Of a DNA stretch of 61,729 nt, positions 1-61,729 are shown piece by piece. The notes under the pieces are model-generated. The model did no database searches. It saw only the letters and a list, made by a program, of their open reading frames with translations, and was not told where the DNA came from. The stretch spans positions 1 to 61,729 of the IMG/VR virus record IMGVR_UViG_3300043395_000560; one strand, 5' to 3'. The DNA is from a virus (Duplodnaviria > Caudoviricetes). Made by a program: the position numbers and the translations under genes. The number at the start of each line of letters is the position of its first letter. Position 1 is the stretch's first letter.

Positions 1-127
1 GTGGATTCGTATCCACATCAGGTTTAGGAGGTGGATTCGTATCCACCTTGGGCTTGTCCTGCGTTAGCTCATTCTTAACAGCAGCGACAAACGTATGACT
101 GACGCTGCACAGCTTGGCTATCTCACG
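1..127. repeat. Terminal 127-bp direct repeat, left copy (assembly circularisation overlap)
   Basis: Identical to 61603-61729; an ORF reads through the junction in frame; 127 is a common assembler k-mer size. Confidence 0.95.
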
Positions 128-487
128 GTCAGACTTGCCGCGATGCGCGTCCGTTGCCAGCGCAGATACCACCGCCTTGCGCTTATCTTCTCTGGTGCGG
201 GGCAGACCGTGCTTGTCATTGACCGACCAGCTTTTCTCTATCGCTTCCTGCAACGTGCCAGGCACAGTCGTTACAAGAATGCTAGGTGTTTTGATCTTCT
301 TGGCTGCAAAGTAACGGTGGAATCCGTCAACCAGATAGTACTTGTCGCCGTCGTGATACAGCAGGCATGGCGGGAACTGCGCCCCGTCTTTCATAGCCTC
401 CGCATAATCTGCGATGGTGTCCTTCTTCAGTGTTGCTCTGGCTTGTGTACCGGCGTCAATTGTTATTTTGTCTAAACTTAGGTGCAT
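1..487 (-). CDS. ParB/Srx-like N-terminal domain plus HTH protein, 5' part (continues at 61602 down to 61307)
   Basis: Manual translation from ATG 487: MHLSLDKITIDAGTQAR...YYLVDGFHRYFAA...NDKHGLPRTREDKRKAV...KSDREIAKLCSVSHTFVAAVK. DGxHR ParB motif and an HTH. Absent from the ORF track because it spans the contig ends. Confidence 0.85.
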   Translation of the reverse strand, partial: MHLSLDKITIDAGTQARATLKKDTIADYAEAMKDGAQFPPCLLYHDGDKYYLVDGFHRYFAAKKIKTPSILVTTVPGTLQEAIEKSWSVNDKHGLPRTREDKRKAVVSALATDAHRGKSDREIAKLCSVSHTFVAAVKNELTQDKPKVDTNPPPKPDVDTNP

Positions 488-489
488 AT

Positions 490-594
490 TTACTCCCATG
501 TAAATGCAATAAATGCAGCGACCGCTAGGCCAAGGATGCAGCCCGCGCCGATGAGGATGCCGCCAAACAAAACGATGGTGGTGAATGTATCCAT
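490..594 (-). CDS. Small membrane peptide (34 aa)
   Basis: MDTFTTIVLFGGILIGAGCILGLAVAAFIAFTWE; TGATG-coupled to the upstream gene; one hydrophobic helix. Confidence 0.6.
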   Translation of the reverse strand: MDTFTTIVLFGGILIGAGCILGLAVAAFIAFTWE

Positions 595-800
595 CAGTCT
601 CCTTTCTTACCCTTGATAAGATCAATCATCTCGCAGTACGCACTTTTGCTAGCCATGTCATCTCTGGCCATGACCATATCGAAACAGGCGGCGTGAACGT
701 CTGCAAAGTACCGCAGCAAGCGCGCCGCTTCCATATCCATCCCGTTGCGGGAACTGCCTTCAAGATAATCAGCGATCGCATCTGCTTTGGTCTTGATCAC
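594..800 (-). CDS. Hypothetical protein
   Basis: 68-aa ORF coupled to both neighbours by start/stop overlaps. Confidence 0.7.
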   Translation of the reverse strand: MIKTKADAIADYLEGSSRNGMDMEAARLLRYFADVHAACFDMVMARDDMASKSAYCEMIDLIKGKKGD

Positions 801-994
801 AGCACCGACTCCTCTCGCGTAGTGATAGATGCCCTGGCTACGTCAAACAGGAAGCCGTTGTCGGCAGCCACCTGCTCTAGTTGCTTCTCCAGTGCGCGGA
901 ATACATGCCCCGTAAGCTCGTCAGAAAGCCCGTCAGAGGCGCGGAACGCCAGTCTAGCGGTAAACACCAAGTCTGCCTCAAAAAAACTGTCCAT
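797..994 (-). CDS. Hypothetical protein (65 aa, MDSFFEADL...)
   Basis: AGGAGAG RBS before ATG 994; the longer ORF-track start (1051) lies inside the pentamer tract. Confidence 0.7.
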   Translation of the reverse strand: MDSFFEADLVFTARLAFRASDGLSDELTGHVFRALEKQLEQVAADNGFLFDVARASITTREESVL

Positions 995-1017
995 ACACTC
1001 TCCTACTCGTTTTAAAC

Positions 1018-1087
1018 TACCCATGCCATACCTGACCGTAGCTGACCCCACAAAACCAAACCTTGCCTGAGCACGGCTCGCCTAGCC
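1018..1087 (-). ncRNA. GGY-NN pentamer tract E, downstream of the RAMP-like gene
   Basis: Minus strand: GGC-TA GGC-GA GCC-GT GCT-CA GGC-AA GGT-TT GGT-TT TGT-GG GGT-CA GCT-AC GGT-CA GGT-AT GGC-AT GGG-TA; unbroken 5-nt phase. Confidence 0.7.
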
Positions 1088-1091
1088 AGAA

Positions 1092-1706
1092 TTAGTTTTC
1101 AGAAACATTAAACGACACTACATTAAATCGTCCGTACGTTGGGCGGAAGTCGCCTATCCCGACCAACCGACCTGCCATGTGTAACGTATCTTGCAGCCAG
1201 AACTTGTCGATATATTCTGGCACTAGCACCATCAAATCAAAATCAAGCCTGTAGCCTGCGGAGATGGCTGGGCGGACGCGATTGACAGCCTGCCGCTGGA
1301 CTACAGCGCGGCGCTTGTCTTCGTAATCCCATTTGGTTTTGCCGAATGAGGCCAAGTTAGTGAGGCTGACTAACCCAGCTTTTGTCAGATCCATCGCGCT
1401 CTTACGGGGGGAACGGGGATCCTGCTTAAACTTCGAGGCCATGATGATTGATTGCCGCAAGTACTCGCCTGGACAGCACAGCTCACCAGCGTCATTACGC
1501 CAAACGTAAGACTCGATATCGTCAAACTTTTTTAATGCAGAGTTCTTAGGTGCTTTTGCTTTTGTTTCAACAGCTTCGCAATTCCAGCGATGGAAAAGGA
1601 AATCTGTGTTGCCTTCGATCGTGACATGCGCCACATACGGGAACCCAATTTCAATGGATTCCGCACCACCATTACTTACTTCAGCGACTTGTTTTGCTTT
1701 TGACAT
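1092..1706 (-). CDS. Solitary RAMP/Cas7-like RNA-binding protein (204 aa)
   Basis: AGGAGA RBS before ATG 1706 (MSKAKQ...). Motifs VTIEGNTDFLFH, LCCPGEYLRQSI and C-terminal G-rich loop AGRLVGIGDFRPTYGRFNV parallel RAMP beta1, IPGSSLKG and GxGxxRxxGYGR motifs. Confidence 0.7.
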   Translation of the reverse strand: MSKAKQVAEVSNGGAESIEIGFPYVAHVTIEGNTDFLFHRWNCEAVETKAKAPKNSALKKFDDIESYVWRNDAGELCCPGEYLRQSIIMASKFKQDPRSPRKSAMDLTKAGLVSLTNLASFGKTKWDYEDKRRAVVQRQAVNRVRPAISAGYRLDFDLMVLVPEYIDKFWLQDTLHMAGRLVGIGDFRPTYGRFNVVSFNVSEN

Positions 1707-1792
1707 TATCTTTCTCCTAGTTAAAAACCATACCTTGCCCAACCAAGCCGGGCCACGCCCCGACACAACTCGCCGGATCTAGCCACGCCCTG

Positions 1793-1848
1793 TAATGCTC
1801 ACGCATCGCACAGAAGCCTTTTACAAGCCCCTGTACGCTGCCTAGCAG
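1793..1848 (-). repeat. 56-nt hairpin repeat R1
   Basis: Minus RNA CUGCUAGGCAG-CGUACAGGGGCUU-GUAAA-AGGCUUCUGUGCG-AUGCGUGAGCAUUA; 13-bp inner stem with G-U pairs. Confidence 0.9.
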
Positions 1849-1895
1849 CTCCGTGCCACACCCCGCCTGGCCCTGCCAATCCTTGCCAGACCGAA

Positions 1896-1951
1896 TAATG
1901 CTTACGCATCGCTCAGCAGACTGAATCAACCTGCTGAACGCTGCATAGCAG
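1896..1951 (-). repeat. 56-nt hairpin repeat R2
   Basis: Minus RNA CUGCUAUGCAG-CGUUCAGCAGGUUG-AUU-CAGUCUGCUGAGCG-AUGCGUAAGCAUUA; 14-bp inner stem. Confidence 0.9.
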
Positions 1952-2007
1952 CCCTTGCCTAGCCGTGCCGGTGCTTGCCCCGCCGTAACTTGCCACGCCG
2001 TACCCGA

Positions 2008-2063
2008 TGACGCTTACGCATCGCACAGAAAGCTCAGAGAACTCTCTGTACGCTGCACAGCAG
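2008..2063 (-). repeat. 56-nt hairpin repeat R3
   Basis: Minus RNA CUGCUGUGCAG-CGUACAGAGAGUUC-UCU-GAGCUUUCUGUGCG-AUGCGUAAGCGUCA; 14-bp inner stem. Confidence 0.9.
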
Positions 2064-2170
2064 ACCTTGCCCAACCCCAACCAGCCGTATCCAACCGCAA
2101 CTCACCATGCCAGGCACTGCCCCGCCGGACCACGCCACGCCCGAACATGCCGTGCCGAACGACAGTTGAC

Positions 2171-2198
2171 ATCCTACCGGAACAACCTGTTGTGTCTA
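2171..2198 (-). promoter_or_regulatory. Putative sigma70 promoter for the array and RAMP-like gene
   Basis: Minus strand TAGACA-16 nt-TAGGAT; the -10 box ends 14 nt before the first pentamer. Confidence 0.45.
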
Positions 2199-2574
2199 AT
2201 CGTAAATATTAATCGCAGGAAAAAAGTTGATAGCCCTAGAAAAATGAGTAGGCATAGGTTCCCCAAGGGTGATAGCCCGAGCCAAGTGCGCAGCACACTT
2301 GTTGGAGTATCACGCCTGCCCAGAGTAGCCTGTGATGCCAGCTACTCCTAGCTGCTGGAACTTGTCTGATGTTGCCAGACTTGCTACAGCCCCCAGAAGG
2401 CAGCGATTATCTCGATCACAGGTCTTGTCTCACCACTTGGCCCTGTGTCTTGTGTAGTCCCTCGCTGACAGGCTACGTGGCTTGCTCCGGGGTGGACGGC
2501 AGCCAGTGTTTTCTCTCCGGCAGCCCATGCAGGCTCACTGCTATCGCGGGAGGTGCGGTCAGGAGAGCGCCCAT

Positions 2575-2673
2575 AAAAAAACCCTTAAGGTTTGGCTCTC
2601 CGTGTATGGGCACGTCCCCGGGGGGATGAGAACCAAAGCTCAAGGGCTTTAGTTGGTTGTCGCTGCCCATACA
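2575..2673 (-). promoter_or_regulatory. Attenuator-like long terminator hairpin with alternative pairing
   Basis: AAAGCCCTTGAGCTTTGGTTCTC...GAGAGCCAAACCTTAAGGGTTTTTTT; the loop contains TGCCCATACA, complementary to TGTATGGGCA just upstream. Confidence 0.55.
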
Positions 2674-2845
2674 GTGACGCGCACAGTGTAGGACAGATTC
2701 AGATGTGATGCAAGTGGCCAGTCTTTCCTGGCTGTCACTACTCGCTGCGCCTGCCGCTTCTCTCTTCCGGTGGTGTGTCCGGAACTCAGCAGTATCCGCT
2801 TTCGATATTGAGAGTGTACCGGAACAATGTATTGACATCAACGAC

Positions 2846-2878
2846 AAAAAAGAGGGCGCCGGAGATCGTCGCGCCCTC
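2846..2878 (-). terminator. Intrinsic terminator-like hairpin
   Basis: GAGGGCGC-11 nt-GCGCCCTC followed by TTTTTT on the minus strand. Confidence 0.55.
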
Positions 2879-3019
2879 AACTCCCACACGGGAGCATTGC
2901 CGCCGCGAAGAAACCTGATCAGAGGAGAAAGAGAGCAGATCAGGCAGCTTCAATATAACAATAGCACACAAACTCATGTATTGGCAGCTCTAGGAAACAT
3001 GCGGGTTTTCAGGGCAAAA

Positions 3020-3033
3020 TGGCAACGTTGCCA
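3020..3033. promoter_or_regulatory. Perfect 14-bp palindrome TGGCAACGTTGCCA (operator/parS-like)
   Basis: AATGGCAACGTTGCCACT occurs at 3018-3035 and again at 53578-53595; this copy lies 35 bp upstream of a consensus promoter. Confidence 0.5.
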
Positions 3034-3068
3034 CTTTTCAATACACTGTTCCTGTTACAAATAAACTG

Positions 3069-3097
3069 TTGACATACACTAGATGTCGAACTATATT
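3069..3097 (+). promoter_or_regulatory. Sigma70 promoter for the rightward operon
   Basis: TTGACA-17 nt-TATATT, followed by AGGAGG RBS and ATG 3116. Confidence 0.75.
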
Positions 3098-3115
3098 TAG
3101 ATGAAGGAGGGCGAC

Positions 3116-3343
3116 ATGTTGAGTGATGAGCATCGGCAAATCTTGGTGGAAGCGCATCGTCGGTTCAAGGAGACACGGGATCGGGATGAGTTTAACGACA
3201 CTATCCAGATGGTAAAAGCAATAGCGCCGGAGAAGTTTTTTCATGGCGAGAAAGATCCCAGATTGGGACTACGGGTGTTCGTGCATCAGCCGTTCAGTGG
3301 CCATTGGTCTGGCCGGGCAATAACCAACAAGCGGGCGTGGTGA
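3116..3343 (+). CDS. Hypothetical protein
   Basis: AGGAGG RBS; first gene after the promoter. Confidence 0.7.
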   Translation: MLSDEHRQILVEAHRRFKETRDRDEFNDTIQMVKAIAPEKFFHGEKDPRLGLRVFVHQPFSGHWSGRAITNKRAW

Positions 3344-3555
3344 TGAGTGACAAACTATTTGCACCATTCAACTGGCAGGCGGCGTGGGAATGGGTCAATC
3401 GGATCTGGGCGAAGAGCCTGGTAGCGGTCTTCCTATTCTTCCTTGGCCTATGGATAGGCATAGTCCAGACAGAAGGACGGGTGGCCAGTGACTGCAAGTT
3501 TGCACAGGCTTTCCGCGTGGACATCCAGGCGTTCACTTGTCAGAGGAAGCTATGA
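3343..3555 (+). CDS. Small membrane protein
   Basis: TGATG coupling; hydrophobic stretch LVAVFLFFLGLWIGIV. Confidence 0.65.
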   Translation: MSDKLFAPFNWQAAWEWVNRIWAKSLVAVFLFFLGLWIGIVQTEGRVASDCKFAQAFRVDIQAFTCQRKL

Positions 3556-3881
3556 ACAGAGATGACATTATCCGCATGGCTGAAGAAGCCTGTAATGGCA
3601 AGCAACTTGAGTATTTCAACGGTTGGGGCGTCGTGTTTGACCATGAACAACTTGAACGCTTTGCCAACCTAGTCGCAGCAGCGGAGCGTGAGAAGTGGAA
3701 GTGGGAAGATCTTCATACATGCCACCCACACTGTGATCGACCTGCTTGTGTTGCGGTGAGAAGGGCCAGGGAAGACGAGCGCGAAATGTGTGCAGCAGTC
3801 TGTGACACGTTAGGCGATGAGTACGCTGACGCGAATCCGGCAGACTGCGCGTTCGCTATCCGCGAGAGAGGTGCGCCATGA
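3552..3881 (+). CDS. Hypothetical phage protein (MNRDDIIRMA...LERFA...ERE.CA...AIR type)
   Basis: ATGA coupling; motif pattern familiar from small phage accessory proteins. Confidence 0.7.
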   Translation: MNRDDIIRMAEEACNGKQLEYFNGWGVVFDHEQLERFANLVAAAEREKWKWEDLHTCHPHCDRPACVAVRRAREDEREMCAAVCDTLGDEYADANPADCAFAIRERGAP

Positions 3882-3999
3882 GTGATAAGCAAATGTTTGT
3901 ATTGGCGGGGGTAGCGTTTCTTGCGCCGCACTTGCCTCGTCGCTTTGCCTACGTGCTGGCAGTTACCTATTTTGTTCTTGGTGTGTTTTGGGGGCAACA

Positions 4000-4302
4000 A
4001 TGACCACGGATAGAGAGCTAATGCAGCAAGCATTGAATGTGTTGAAGATTTTTGTTGATGGCGGCAACTCAGCTTGGGCTAGAAAAATAATTGAAATAAA
4101 AGAAGCTCTACGCGCTCGACTTGCGCAGCCAGAGCGCGAATGGCAAGGGCTGACGGATGAAGTGAATGCTGAGTTGGTGGAGGCGCTAAAAGAAGTTAGG
4201 AGCGACATTCGTCATATGCTCAAAGGCCATTTCGTGCATCTGAAAGATGTTGAGGAAGAATTAAGCGCCGCCATCGCCAAAGCTACAGGAGAACAACAAT
4301 GA
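4000..4302 (+). CDS. Modular accessory protein (LRARLAQPE and REWQGLT modules)
   Basis: Shares DNA/peptide modules with neighbouring genes. Confidence 0.7.
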   Translation: MTTDRELMQQALNVLKIFVDGGNSAWARKIIEIKEALRARLAQPEREWQGLTDEVNAELVEALKEVRSDIRHMLKGHFVHLKDVEEELSAAIAKATGEQQ

Positions 4303-4411
4303 TTGATGCTTTTATATTTTGGCTTATTAAACCACTCGCCGAATTTTTAGGCACGATAGTTTTAATATTAGTTTTGCTGGCGGTATTGCATTGGGTATAT
4401 GGAGGTAAAAA

Positions 4412-4627
4412 ATGACCATCACACTAACACGCGAGGAAGCGCAGCAGGTGCTGGATGCGTTGAATAAATATGTCGGCGTTGTCGTGTCTGTGAACGATCC
4501 TGATAGCTGGACTCCGAAAGTTGCAGATGGGGGTGACCCAGCAAGGAAAGCAATCGAAACCCTCCGCGCCCGACTCGCACTACACGACATGAACAAAGCA
4601 GCAGAACAGAACGGGGAGGAACTGTGA
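4412..4627 (+). CDS. Modular accessory protein (MTITLTREEAQQVLDAL module)
   Basis: GGAGG RBS; first 51 bp identical to 5594-5644. Confidence 0.75.
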   Translation: MTITLTREEAQQVLDALNKYVGVVVSVNDPDSWTPKVADGGDPARKAIETLRARLALHDMNKAAEQNGEEL

Positions 4628-5334
4628 TTACATTGACTAAAGAGGAAGCGCAGCAGGTGCTGGATGCTTTGGAATGGAACCTTCCAGTGATTGAAGATTT
4701 TGGCGATAAGGAACAATTACATGAACATCATAAAGCAATCGAAAGCCTCCGCGCTCGACTCGTGCAGCCTGAACCCTACAAACAACCTGAAGATAACCGG
4801 CTTCTGATGCAAGCGTATCGAGCAATACATGAAAAGCAGCCTGAACCGGAGCCGGTGGCGTGGGTAGAAAACCTGACTGATGCGCAGCCTCATGCCGTGA
4901 CTGACCTGAAGTATTGCAGCATGGCGCAGCATGAGCGTGGGGAGCATTTGAAGTACATCCCACTATATAAAGACCCAACACCTTGCCAAACCTGCGAAGC
5001 ATTAGCGCGAACAGTAATGATGGATCAGACCTATCACGACAACGTCACATCACAGCGTGAAATTACAGATGATGAGTTTGTGGCTGAAGCAAAAAAGAGG
5101 GGGTTTTTTGGATTTGTGCCGCCAAAGCTATGGCTGTGGAAAAACTTTGTTGATGGCAAGCCAGAGTATTGGGCGTTTGACAACCCATACCCAAGAAATC
5201 TTAACGATGGCGACCCGCAGACGATTGGTCAGCCTTGTGGCTATGCAATTTTTAAACCCTCGCGTGACGGAAGTAATGGACGAACTGAAGAACAAGTATT
5301 GCGCGAAATTAGTGAAGCACAAGAAAGGAGTTAA
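4624..5334 (+). CDS. Modular accessory protein
   Basis: EEAQQVLDAL, LRARL and QPEPEPVAW modules. Confidence 0.75.
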   Translation: MITLTKEEAQQVLDALEWNLPVIEDFGDKEQLHEHHKAIESLRARLVQPEPYKQPEDNRLLMQAYRAIHEKQPEPEPVAWVENLTDAQPHAVTDLKYCSMAQHERGEHLKYIPLYKDPTPCQTCEALARTVMMDQTYHDNVTSQREITDDEFVAEAKKRGFFGFVPPKLWLWKNFVDGKPEYWAFDNPYPRNLNDGDPQTIGQPCGYAIFKPSRDGSNGRTEEQVLREISEAQERS

Positions 5335-5336
5335 AT

Positions 5337-5597
5337 ATGCTTTATTTTCAAGAGCCAGACATTGAGCCTAATTACCGCATCAACGGTGTGGACTTATACA
5401 CGACCGACCAAACAATTCAACACGCGGTAAAGATGCAAGAGTTTCAACTCGAAATGCTGAGAAAGCAAAAAATAGTAACCGAAGCTTCTCAGAAAGAATG
5501 GCAGGGGTTTAGCGAACAGGAAATTGGCTTGTGGAGAGACTCGGCGCATGGAATATTGCGGTGGGCAGAAATGGTATTGCGGGAGAAAAATACATGA
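5337..5597 (+). CDS. Modular accessory protein
   Basis: KEWQGFS and LREKNT modules. Confidence 0.7.
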   Translation: MLYFQEPDIEPNYRINGVDLYTTDQTIQHAVKMQEFQLEMLRKQKIVTEASQKEWQGFSEQEIGLWRDSAHGILRWAEMVLREKNT

Positions 5598-5977
5598 CCA
5601 TCACACTAACACGCGAGGAAGCGCAGCAGGTGCTGGATGCGTTGGATTCTTGCGAATGGTATGACGATGGCGGGTTCGGTTGTCCGTCATATGACTACGA
5701 TAAAGTTTCCCCAGCACGAGAAACCCTCCGCGCCCGACTCGCGCAGCCTGAGCCGGAGCCGGTGGCAGACAAGTACCTGATGGAAGTTGAATGCACAAAG
5801 TGCGGAGCAAAGCAGGATGGCATCTTGACCGTCAACGCCCCACCACAGCGCGAATGGCAGGGGCTGACGGAAGATGAGATCAAGAAAGAGCAGCACCACA
5901 TTGATTGGACGAACGTGCATACCTACGCAAAATTTGCCCGCGCCATCGAAGCCAAGCTAAAGGAGAAGAACACATGA
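5594..5977 (+). CDS. Modular accessory protein with a CxxC insert
   Basis: Contains all five shared modules plus ECTKCG. Confidence 0.75.
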   Translation: MTITLTREEAQQVLDALDSCEWYDDGGFGCPSYDYDKVSPARETLRARLAQPEPEPVADKYLMEVECTKCGAKQDGILTVNAPPQREWQGLTEDEIKKEQHHIDWTNVHTYAKFARAIEAKLKEKNT

Positions 5978-6102
5978 GAAACGCGCTTGTTTTGTTTGTA
6001 GTGTTTATATCTGGGTGCGTTTCAACACATTATTTTTGGTTTACTGGACGGTTTACTTTTGCAGAAAAAGAAATTAAATGGGAGCGCAATCGTGGGCGAT
6101 AA
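5974..6102 (+). CDS. Putative small lipoprotein
   Basis: MRNALVLFVVFISGC; lipobox-like ISGC; AGGAGA RBS. Confidence 0.45.
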   Translation: MRNALVLFVVFISGCVSTHYFWFTGRFTFAEKEIKWERNRGR

Positions 6103-61306: not shown

Positions 61307-61729
61307 TTATTGTTCGAGTTTCTTGAGCTTTTTGGTAAGAGATGCAACCTGCTTCATCAGCTGATTGTTTTCCCTCAAGAGAGAATCACGGGAATCCGTG
61401 ACACCTTTTAATTCTATCTCCAACAATCTGATCTGTGCGCGTAAATCTTTGATGACTGATTCGGCCATGGCTTTGTCGAGTTCATCTGCATCCATCGCGG
61501 CGATCGCCAACTTGTCAGACAGCGCTTCGTTCTCCGACTTCAATAACTCAATCGTTGCCTCTAATTCTTCTTTGAATACCGCTGACTCGTCCGGCTCTTG
61601 AGGTGGATTCGTATCCACATCAGGTTTAGGAGGTGGATTCGTATCCACCTTGGGCTTGTCCTGCGTTAGCTCATTCTTAACAGCAGCGACAAACGTATGA
61701 CTGACGCTGCACAGCTTGGCTATCTCACG
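61307..61729 (-). CDS. ParB-like protein, 3' part (linker plus coiled coil)
   Basis: In frame with the ORF starting at 487 across the circular junction. Confidence 0.85.
   Translation of the reverse strand, partial: REIAKLCSVSHTFVAAVKNELTQDKPKVDTNPPPKPDVDTNPPQEPDESAVFKEELEATIELLKSENEALSDKLAIAAMDADELDKAMAESVIKDLRAQIRLLEIELKGVTDSRDSLLRENNQLMKQVASLTKKLKKLEQ
61603..61729. repeat. Terminal 127-bp direct repeat, right copy
   Basis: Identical to 1-127. Confidence 0.95.

What the first reader, a model, noticed from the sequence alone, without database searches (positions are those of the whole stretch)
1793..2063. Three 56-nt repeats conserve structure rather than sequence, and only as minus-strand RNA
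Seen: the flanks are conserved (CUGCUnnGCAGCGU...GCGAUGCGUrAGCrUyA), while the inner stems differ but still pair: CGUACAGGGGCUU/AGGCUUCUGUGCG, CGUUCAGCAGGUUG/CAGUCUGCUGAGCG and CGUACAGAGAGUUC/GAGCUUUCUGUGCG. The non-Watson-Crick positions are G-U on the minus strand and would be A-C on the plus strand, which fixes the strand and argues for a functional RNA. An outer stem with a G/A mismatch extends each hairpin. Inference: these are processing sites (RNase III-like, or cut by the RAMP protein) or caps that delimit individual guides.
Basis: partly seen in the sequence, partly recalled or inferred. Interest (0 to 1): 0.75.

Follow-up and report, generated by a model that had tools for sequence, protein, structure and literature searches.

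The report
Guide-RNA end caps of phage VIPR

Summary
Three about 54-nt repeats lie at 2063-2010, 1951-1898 and 1848-1795. They fold only as minus-strand RNA: about -29.5 kcal/mol, against -15 to -20 on the plus strand.

In 26 copies from related phages the inner stem covaries. Of its 14 pairs, 10 changed on both sides, 98% of cells pair, and 0 of 500 shuffles reach this.

The repeats are not isolated. Each follows a tract of GGYNN pentamers, and the array lies directly upstream of a 204-aa gene. That protein folds like Cas7/Csm3 and is homologous to the Vipr protein of phage SUSP1 (hhalign 97.3%).

This is a VIPR system as described in 2026 bioRxiv preprints: a Vipr filament on a GGY/NN guide RNA that ends in a structured 3' tail. 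The repeats are those tails.

The tract between tails 3 and 2 matches, at 24 of 24 variable bases under the published one-base-skip rule, a conserved motif of a phage gene (phrog_2480) in three other records. The skipped base falls on the codon wobble position.

The long "outer stem" fails in a wider alignment; two flanking mini-hairpins fit better. Who cuts the array, if anyone, is untested.

Verdict: a new member of a known kind.

The parts
2171..2198 (-). sigma-70-like promoter candidate for the array and vipr (TAGACA, 16 nt, TAGGAT)
   Evidence: Consensus scan, 9 of 12 matches. The region is kept with few changes in near-identical phage L004, while the sequence further upstream is unrelated. 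This is a consensus match only; no transcript start is shown.
2062..2156 (-). guide tract 3: 19 in-phase pentamers, 14 of them GGY
   Evidence: Parsed. No target was found.
   Evidence: Fold -29.4 kcal/mol. Covariance model R1 scores 82.8 bits. Pair counts.
1950..2009 (-). guide tract 2: 12 pentamer units, running from directly after tail 3 into the first two bases of P1 of tail 2
   Evidence: 24 of 24 variable bases match L140 6031-6066 under the one-base-skip rule; shuffled unit order gives at most 17. Exact matches also occur in L149 and L150. The variable bases fall on codon positions 1-2.
1898..1951 (-). tail 2 (second repeat)
   Evidence: Fold -29.7 kcal/mol. R1 scores 87 bits.
1848..1897 (-). 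guide tract 1: 10 pentamer units
   Evidence: Parsed. The 8 exact hits of its 8-unit core are at chance level.
1795..1848 (-). tail 1 (first repeat)
   Evidence: Fold -29.4 kcal/mol. R1 scores 80.3 bits.
1725..1794 (-). tract D: about 13 pentamer units without a hairpin tail, running into a U-run and the ribosome-binding site of vipr
   Evidence: In L004 it is replaced by an unrelated tract, although the Vipr protein is 100% identical.
1092..1706 (-). vipr gene (P0001, 204 aa): single-domain Cas7-like RAMP
   Evidence: AF2 model pLDDT 84.6, pTM 0.77. The top Foldseek PDB hits listed are chains of type VII, Csm and Cmr effector complexes, two of them solved Csm3 proteins, E 4e-7 and up. hhalign to SUSP1 Vipr gives 97.3%, E 1.8e-11. 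phrog_4652, no Pfam family.
1018..1087 (-). tract E: 14 pentamer units (9 with GG) just after the vipr stop codon, without a hairpin tail, running into the ribosome-binding site of the next ORF
   Evidence: Identical in L004.
797..994 (-). 65-aa ORF downstream of vipr; a possible accessory gene, unassigned
   Evidence: No Pfam or PHROG family. Found only in L004 and L126, two loci cut from one contig, at 60% identity.

Best explanation
The three repeats are the structured 3' tails (end caps, or handles) of three VIPR guide RNAs (vrRNAs).

**Proposed course of events.**
- The minus strand from about 2160 to 1707 is transcribed as one precursor together with the vipr gene.
- Each unit is a tract of 10-19 GGYNN pentamers followed by a tail.
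- The tail has three parts. P1 is a mini-hairpin, CUG(C)-loop-(G)CAG. P2 is a 13-14-bp hairpin whose base (C-G, G-C, U-G) is fixed and whose upper part varies with compensation. P3 is usually a mini-hairpin, AUGC-GNRA-GCAU.
- Vipr protomers bind one per pentamer, hold the GGY bases and expose the NN bases. The NN bases pair with double-stranded target DNA, skipping one base per unit.
- The tail marks where a filament ends and where the next guide begins, and most likely stays on the mature RNA.

**Shown here:** the structures, their covariation, the strand, the homology of the protein, the pentamer tracts, and one guide-to-target match bounded by two tails.

**Taken from the preprints on SUSP1 and P. 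fulva:** filament assembly, the skip rule, the capping role of the 3' structure, and silencing of rival phages.

**Inferred:** that this differently folded tail does the same job, and that the array is cut into about 100-nt units.
For: **Structure and strand.**
- The hairpins are stable only on the minus strand.
- The 28 covariance-model hits of 56-87 bits all lie on the vipr strand, in the window and 12 related loci. Opposite-strand hits score 14-22 bits.
- In 26 copies, P2 has 10 of 14 pairs changed on both sides and 98.1% of cells paired. Over the three helices counted together, 0 of 500 shuffles reach the observed values, and partners slid by 1-3 columns pair in only 25-54% of cells.

**Context.**
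- GGY-to-GGY spacing in the 459-nt leader gives 25 pairs at lag 5, against a shuffle mean of 2.1 and maximum of 10.
- A chain of 5 or more GG at exact 5-nt spacing lies within 600 nt upstream of the homologous gene in 52 of 79 loci. The same measure gives 1 of 79 on the opposite strand and 0 of 79 inside the gene.
- The protein is a Cas7-like RAMP and is homologous to SUSP1 Vipr, with a shared C-terminal glycine-loop motif.

**Function.**
- Guide tract 2 matches 24 of 24 variable bases in L140.
- It also matches L149 (171 of 174 residues identical to the L140 protein) and L150 (a 43%-identical homologue whose wobble bases differ).
- The variable bases always fall on codon positions 1-2 of a phrog_2480 gene; in L140 that gene lies next to a Sak4-like gene.
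- A 16-base control pattern gave 8 hits in the same collection, so a 20-base pattern is expected about 0.03 times.
- The first and last matched units were not part of the first search pattern.

**Literature.** vrRNA is defined as 9-16 GGY/NN repeats plus a conserved structured 3' tail (Results of 10.64898/2026.04.26.720920). The 3' pseudoknot caps the RNA (passages of ...720927). A shared tail makes a solo vrRNA competent for Vipr complex formation (passages of 10.64898/2026.10.15.759431).
Against: - There is no direct RNA evidence for this phage. The RNA-library data are contigs without ends or strand, and such libraries can contain DNA.
- A target was found for only 1 of 5 pentamer tracts.
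- Two tracts (D and E) have no such tail, so the tail is not needed for every tract.
- The SUSP1 tail is unrelated in sequence and fold: the model gave no hit at E <= 1e-7 in the first 50,000 bases of the SUSP1 record (L139), which hold its VIPR locus. Equivalence of function therefore rests on position only.
- Tail-like hairpins without pentamer tracts occur upstream of genes in viral fragments where no Vipr was found. This allows a Vipr-independent role.
- The same tail family accompanies two divergent Vipr lineages.
Confidence: 0.88

Rival explanations
1. The hairpins are only cutting or insulating signals for a host or phage RNase (RNase III-like or other). They separate the guides, are removed or play no part in the Vipr complex, and are a general phage RNA element that the array borrowed.
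For: - Hairpins with a similar outline and the same conserved base of P2, most with a P1 and a P3 as well, but no pentamer tract, lie 20-60 nt upstream of start codons in 15 loci of other viral fragments.
- Five whole records of this kind have 1-2 hits each and no Vipr hit.
- The same tail serves two Vipr lineages.
- In the window copies an extended helix of 22 pairs or more with one G/A mismatch can be drawn.
Against: - In SUSP1 the 3' structure stays on the mature RNA and caps the filament.
- The extended helix fails in 10-13 of 26 copies, and 6 of 26 copies lack the 3' part altogether.
- The five records are only 39-70% complete, so the absence of Vipr is not shown.
Confidence: 0.08
2. The hairpins are attenuators or terminators in a long 5' leader that tune expression of the downstream RAMP gene.
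For: They lie in the leader of the gene on the sense strand. Tract D runs into the ribosome-binding site.
Against: - No U-run follows any of the three hairpins.
- The terminator scan finds only a 5-pair piece inside tail 3, and terminator-like sites in the scanned region (4 found) are no more frequent than in shuffles (mean 2.7).
- In L117 the same tails lie downstream of vipr.
Confidence: 0.02
3. The repeats act as DNA: operators, an origin of replication or recombination sites.
For: P1 is a short palindrome. The region lies between divergent transcription units, and cumulative GC skew turns nearby. Variant joints near the tails appear in one DNA run.
Against: - Compensated changes that pass through G-U pairs, and the twofold energy difference between strands, point to a single strand of one polarity.
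- Two U-G pairs are invariant in 26 of 26 copies.
Confidence: 0.02

Closest known systems
vrRNA 3' tail of the SUSP1 (type II) VIPR system (bioRxiv 10.64898/2026.04.26.720920 and ...720927)
   Same: - A conserved structured element directly 3' of each GGY/NN tract, one per guide, repeated in an array next to vipr.
- The protein partner is homologous (hhalign 97.3%).
- Guides obey the one-base-skip rule with the skip on the wobble position.
   Different: - There is no sequence or model similarity to the SUSP1 tail.
- The fold here is three tandem hairpins, not a hairpin with a pseudoknot.
- The upper P2 stem differs between units of one array, whereas the SUSP1 tail is called invariable.
- The array here lies upstream of vipr on the same strand, apparently in its leader.
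- The proteins share only 28% identity over 144 aligned columns.
CRISPR repeat hairpin / 3' handle of class 1 crRNAs
   Same: A hairpin that ends each guide in a multi-guide precursor, with a RAMP protein partner that polymerises along the guide.
   Different: - The repeats are not identical (74% to the reference copy).
- The guides are pentamer tracts, not free spacers.
- The cas1, cas2 and cas6 genes were not searched for.
- The published account has double-stranded DNA read by a gapped code.
Solo vrRNAs of satellites and VIPR-null phages (bioRxiv 10.64898/2026.10.15.759431; passages only)
   Same: VIPR RNA parts found without a vipr gene nearby, as with the tail-like hairpins.
   Different: Published solo vrRNAs keep the GGYNN tract. 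The hairpins seen here have none, and sit in 5' leaders of ordinary genes.
RNase III processing hairpins between phage T7 genes (recalled, not tested)
   Same: Intergenic hairpins of about 50-60 nt with an internal mismatch, which separate functional RNAs of one precursor.
   Different: The extended helix is not conserved. No cleavage data exist.

Membership tests
VIPR system (Vipr + vrRNA) | Small single-domain RAMP protein (about 20 kDa) with glycine loop and thumb, related to known Vipr | tested here: met
   204 aa. AF2 model pLDDT 84.6. The top Foldseek hits listed are chains of type VII, Csm and Cmr effector complexes, two of them solved Csm3 proteins, with 140 hits at E <= 0.001. hhalign against SUSP1 Vipr gives 97.3%, E 1.8e-11, 144 columns. 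The C-terminal G-x-G-D-aromatic-R-P motif is shared, with D186 and R188 invariant in 40 of 40 relatives.
VIPR system (Vipr + vrRNA) | Tandem GGY/NN pentamer tracts (published range 9-16 units) next to vipr | tested here: met
   Five in-phase tracts of 10-19 units on the vipr strand. Lag-5 excess is 25 against a shuffle mean of 2.1. Tracts occur upstream of the gene in 52 of 79 related loci. One tract (19 units) exceeds the published range.
VIPR system (Vipr + vrRNA) | Conserved structured 3' tail after the repeat tract | tested here: met
   Present after 3 of 5 tracts. Covariation is shown in 26 copies. Tracts D and E lack it.
VIPR system (Vipr + vrRNA) | Variable dinucleotides specify a DNA target with one skipped base per unit, typically the codon wobble base of a rival element's gene | tested here: met
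   Met for 1 of 5 tracts: 24 of 24 bases in L140, L149 and L150, in frame. No target was found for the other four.
VIPR system (Vipr + vrRNA) | Guides turn over between close relatives while GGY, tail and protein stay | tested here: met
   Tracts of L005-L015 differ from the window's by eye, while tails and protein (82-86% identity) are kept. Tract D is replaced in L004, which has an identical protein.
VIPR system (Vipr + vrRNA) | Expressed RNAs of about 100 nt that co-purify with Vipr | not testable with these tools
   Only contigs of RNA libraries were available. They show no ends, strand or level.
VIPR system (Vipr + vrRNA) | Accessory gene (vap) beside vipr | tested here: inconclusive
   The two small ORFs downstream have no family and are found only in L004 and L126, two loci cut from one contig. 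A ParB-like gene follows. The type (I-VII) could not be assigned without the closed supplements.
CRISPR array | Near-identical direct repeats separated by unique spacers of similar length | tested here: not met
   Three copies at 74% identity to the reference copy, with spacing of 103 and 112 nt filled by pentamer tracts.
RNase III-type processing hairpin | A continuous helix of about two turns kept across relatives; mapped cleavage | tested here: inconclusive
   The extended helix is possible in the window. Pairs 11-57 and 12-56 are unpaired in 10 and 13 of 26 copies. Cleavage is not testable here.
Any Rfam family | Match to a curated covariance model | tested here: not met
   0 matches at gathering score in the whole window. 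0 matches at E <= 1 in 900-3200.

The most novel reading that the evidence does not exclude
The tail may be an autonomous RNA module that is not tied to one Vipr lineage.

**What suggests this.**
- The same three-hairpin element ends guides of two Vipr lineages that are only distantly related.
- It is absent from other clades of the same protein family.
- It also occurs alone, without any pentamer tract, in the 5' leaders of ordinary genes in viral fragments where no Vipr was found.

**Two readings.** It could be a general phage signal for RNA processing or stability, read by a host factor, that VIPR arrays co-opted to separate guides. Or the solitary copies could be tail-only decoys that titrate Vipr of a rival phage.

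**A related open point.** The two tail-less tracts abut ribosome-binding sites, so Vipr could control translation of its own gene and of the next gene.
Probability: 0.2. Interest if true: 0.6.

Novelty: new member of a known kind. Interest (0 to 1): 0.35.

Why it matters
VIPR is a newly described, minimal RNA-guided DNA-recognition system, proposed as older than CRISPR.

This locus adds three things:
- A well-supported second architecture for the guide's 3' cap: three tandem hairpins, a covarying stem and two invariant U-G pairs. The published detail is a pseudoknot from one clade.
- A natural guide whose target motif is conserved across homologues that are only 43% identical. This shows the wobble-skipping logic at work in an uncultured freshwater phage.
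- Boundaries of the pairing region relative to the cap. Pairing starts directly after the previous cap and runs into the first two bases of the guide's own cap.

These points help in designing guides and caps. They do not change the picture of how the system works.

Tried and rejected
**Searches that returned nothing**
- Rfam: no match. tRNA or tmRNA: none.
- Pfam: no family for the RAMP protein or its neighbours.
- Megablast of window 1-6000 against phage records: no match.
- tblastn of the protein against phage records: one record only, Phage DSL-LC04, where the gene is annotated as a helix-turn-helix regulator.

**Target searches**
- Both halves of tract 3 and the last 10 units of tract D gave no exact match in viral contigs.
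- The 8-unit core of tract 1 gave 8 matches. None extends on both sides, and only one extends on one side. Five lie in one frame with the skipped base at codon position 1. I take these as chance or family effects.
- There is no self-target in the window; the best is 16 of 24.

**RNA evidence**
- All four laid runs are contigs.
- Pieces from three metatranscriptome runs lie at 1568-1806 (X19), 1607-1739 (X20) and 1281-1482 (X18).
- They show no ends, strand or level, and such libraries can contain DNA.
- Parts without cover carry no meaning.

**Structure**
- The long outer stem was rejected as the conserved fold.
- A 3-bp extension across the G/A mismatch cannot be separated from the mini-hairpin model. 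Its apparent covariation (G-C to A-U in 3 copies) coincides with loss of the P3 hairpin.

**Ideas dropped before the protein was identified**
- G-quadruplex array, Rho-utilisation tract on the plus strand, Chi-like array, single-strand origin hairpins, and binding sites for a TRAP-like ring protein.
- All were dropped once the protein fold and the preprints explained the period of 5.

- As a result, no host and no prophage targets were obtained.

Full report
**1. The observation**

The window is a complete 61,729-nt virus record with terminal repeats. The first 100 nt recur at 61603 and lie inside a ParB-like gene, so position 1 is probably an assembly cut rather than a physical end.

The repeat finder reports three copies of a 61-nt unit at 1788-1848, 1891-1951 and 2003-2063, 74% identical to the reference copy. 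The conserved flank motifs occur only there. The 3' motif has 3 matches against 0.16 expected. The combined pattern has 0 forward and 3 reverse matches. The 5' flank motif alone is weaker: 3 matches against 0.57 expected, and 2 of 100 shuffles reach 3.

As minus-strand RNA each copy folds at about -29.5 kcal/mol (z -3.8 to -4.2). As plus-strand RNA they fold at -15 to -20 (z -1.3 to -3.1).

**2. The surroundings explain it**

The stretches between the hairpins are not random. On the minus strand they are in-phase GGYNN pentamers:
- 19 units from 2156 to 2062;
- 12 units from 2009 to 1950;
- 10 units from 1897 to 1848;
- about 13 units from 1794 to 1725.

In the 459-nt leader, GGY follows GGY at a distance of 5 nt 25 times, against a shuffle mean of 2.1 and a maximum of 10.

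The leader runs into the ribosome-binding site of a 204-aa gene (1706-1092). That gene has no Pfam family and belongs to phrog_4652, of unknown function.

Its AlphaFold model, built on 40 relatives, has pLDDT 84.6. The model matches chains of type VII CRISPR, type III-A Csm and type III-B Cmr effector complexes, and two solved Csm3 proteins (best E 4e-7; 140 hits at E <= 0.001).

Eighty related loci were fetched. In 52 of the 79 loci with enough upstream sequence, a chain of 5 or more GG at exact 5-nt spacing lies within 600 nt upstream on the gene's strand. The same measure gives 1 of 79 on the other strand and 0 of 79 inside the gene. L023 has a chain of 44 units and L072 a chain of 29.

**3. 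It is a VIPR system**

A full-text search found bioRxiv 10.64898/2026.04.26.720920. I read its outline, Results, Discussion, one Methods section and further passages. It defines Viral Interference Programmable Repeat systems as follows:
- a phage-encoded ancestral RAMP protein, Vipr;
- vrRNAs made of 9-16 GGY/NN pentamers followed by a conserved structured 3' tail;
- NN bases that pair with double-stranded DNA while skipping one base per unit, usually the codon wobble base;
- a role in silencing competing phages and satellites.

I checked membership myself. I recalled the accession KT454805, and one search confirmed it as phage SUSP1. In that record I read the published locus: pentamer tracts on both sides of a 195-aa gene.

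A profile of the 40 relatives aligns to that SUSP1 protein with probability 97.3%, E 1.8e-11, over 144 columns at 28% identity. The alignment includes the C-terminal glycine-loop motif. The aspartate and arginine of that motif, and a histidine in the first strand, are invariant in 40 of 40 relatives.

The three repeats are therefore vrRNA tails.

**4. The fold of this tail**

I built a covariance model on the inner stem alone.
- It finds 28 hits of 56-87 bits. All lie on the vipr strand, in the window and the 12 closest loci (82-100% protein identity). Opposite-strand hits score 14-22 bits.
- None of the 68 more distant loci has a hit below E 0.6.
- A pattern scan of viral contigs followed by the model added five copies in L117, L127 and L137.

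The 26 best copies gave the following:
- P2 has 14 pairs, 10 of them changed on both sides, and 98.1% of its cells pair.
- For the whole three-helix structure, 0 of 500 shuffles reach the observed values.
- Partners slid by 1-3 columns pair in only 25-54% of cells.
- Two U-G pairs are invariant in 26 of 26 copies.

Two of its pairs are unpaired in 10 and 13 of 26 copies, and 6 copies lack the 3' part altogether.

Two local mini-hairpins fit better.
- **P1**, CUG(C)-loop-(G)CAG, is paired in 99% of cells. Its loops include UUCG, GAAA and GCAA.
- **P3**, AUGC-loop-GCAU, is paired in 97% of cells. Five different GNRA loops occur.

P1, P2 and P3 abut without linker bases. Because P1 and P3 hardly vary, this preference rests mainly on loop types and on the failure of the rival stem, not on covariation.

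**5. The tails bound a working guide**

I joined the NN bases of the tract between tails 3 and 2 with one free base between units. This pattern gave one exact match in viral contigs, L140.
- The match extends by one unit on each side that the pattern did not include, reaching 24 of 24 bases.
- Shuffled unit order gives at most 17.
- A 16-base control pattern gave 8 hits in the same collection, so about 0.03 hits were expected for 20 bases.

The NN bases fall on codon positions 1 and 2 of a 210-aa ORF (phrog_2480, of unknown function). That ORF lies directly upstream of a Sak4-like annealing-protein gene.

A metagenome scan found two more exact matches:
- L149 encodes a protein identical to the L140 protein at 171 of 174 residues.
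- L150 is a homologue at only 45 of 105 identical residues. Its wobble bases differ, but all 24 NN bases are kept.

The pairing region starts with the first 5 nt after P3 of the preceding tail. It ends with the first two bases of P1 of its own tail. The window itself has no homologue of this gene and no self-target.

No target was found for the other four tracts.

**6. Distribution, and what does not fit neatly**

- **Two Vipr lineages share the tail.** The tail family accompanies the window's lineage and also a SUSP1-like lineage in L117, L127 and L137 (37-43% identical to SUSP1 Vipr). SUSP1 itself uses an unrelated tail. In L117 the array lies downstream of vipr.
- **Other clades differ.** By eye in the printed sequences, other clades of the window's protein family have other elements or none after their tracts.
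- **Two tracts lack the tail.** Tract D runs into the ribosome-binding site of vipr. Tract E (1087-1018) follows the vipr stop codon and runs into the ribosome-binding site of a 65-aa ORF.
- **Guide turnover.** In L004, whose Vipr protein is 100% identical, the three tailed units differ from the window at 6 positions. Tract D is replaced by unrelated sequence, and tract E is identical.
- **Tail-like hairpins without guides.** Hairpins with the same P2 base, most with a similar P1 and a P3, but no pentamer tract, lie 20-60 nt upstream of start codons in 15 loci of other viral fragments. Five such records, 39-70% complete, have 1-2 hits each and no Vipr hit.

**7. How it most likely works**

*Shown here:*
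- an RNA-strand-specific, covarying three-hairpin element after three of five GGYNN tracts;
- a homologous Vipr gene;
- one guide with in-frame natural targets, bounded by two tails.

*Taken from the preprints:*
- Vipr protomers polymerise along the vrRNA and hold GGY (passages of 10.64898/2026.04.26.720927, and of 10.64898/2026.10.21.760802).
- The 3' structure caps the RNA, and protomers resolve from the 3' end towards the 5' end.
- A shared tail makes an RNA competent for Vipr complex formation (passages of 10.64898/2026.10.15.759431).

*Inferred:*
- This tail, although folded differently, is the cap and unit boundary.
- A precursor starts at a promoter-like site at 2198-2171 (kept in L004) and is cut into units by an unknown nuclease.
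- The varying upper stem may reflect drift under selection for structure. It may also limit recombination or mispairing between neighbouring tails.

**8. Verdict**

The system is a new member of a kind described in 2026 preprints.

No direct RNA data could be obtained.

Noticed in passing
window 2253-2717, minus strand: An ORF-poor stretch upstream of the array is conserved at 75-86% in L005, L006 and L012, and at 96% in L004. The consensus fold of 5 sequences has 91 pairs, 25 of them with changes on both sides. It includes a long hairpin followed by a run of seven U around 2640-2556. Folding of 2200-3060 gives z -4.45 on the minus strand and -2.0 on the plus strand. There is no Rfam match. 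This is a candidate unknown structured RNA beside the VIPR locus.
   Followed up: partly
L091 8831-8897(-), L136 492-558(-), L093 2646-2713(+) and 12 further loci listed: Tail-like hairpins without any GGYNN tract sit 20-60 nt upstream of start codons in other viral fragments. Most have a P1 and a P3 as well, and all share the P2 base of the vrRNA tails. No Vipr was found in five whole records, which are 39-70% complete.
   Followed up: partly
window 1725-1794 and 1018-1087, minus strand: Two pentamer tracts lack a hairpin tail, and each runs straight into a ribosome-binding site: that of vipr and that of the next ORF. The first tract is replaced in L004, although the Vipr protein is identical. 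They may be guides with another kind of end, or sites where Vipr controls translation.
   Followed up: partly
window 1586-2070: Contigs of one probable DNA run (X15) and one RNA-library run (X19) join across parts of the array: 1862 to 2070 with 38 other letters between, 1729 to 1998, 1952 to 2012, and 1586 to 1795 with 196 other letters. This would fit unit gain, loss or replacement among related phages. However, joints at 90% likeness in metagenomes can come from repeats or from other organisms.
   Followed up: no
L019 2283-2985 and L028: In another clade of the same protein family, the pentamer tracts are separated by a 16-nt element that alternates with its own reverse complement. Neighbouring elements could therefore pair across a guide.
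   Followed up: no
L138 (Phage DSL-LC04, OR003939.1) 3992-4609: This is the only relative found in the deposited phage collection. Its Vipr homologue (65.5% identical) is annotated as a helix-turn-helix transcriptional regulator. About 300 nt of pentamer tracts lie upstream of it.
   Followed up: partly
window 4400-5900: There are several direct repeats of 40-60 nt at 69-95% identity inside small plus-strand ORFs. This suggests a family of paralogous small genes.
   Followed up: no
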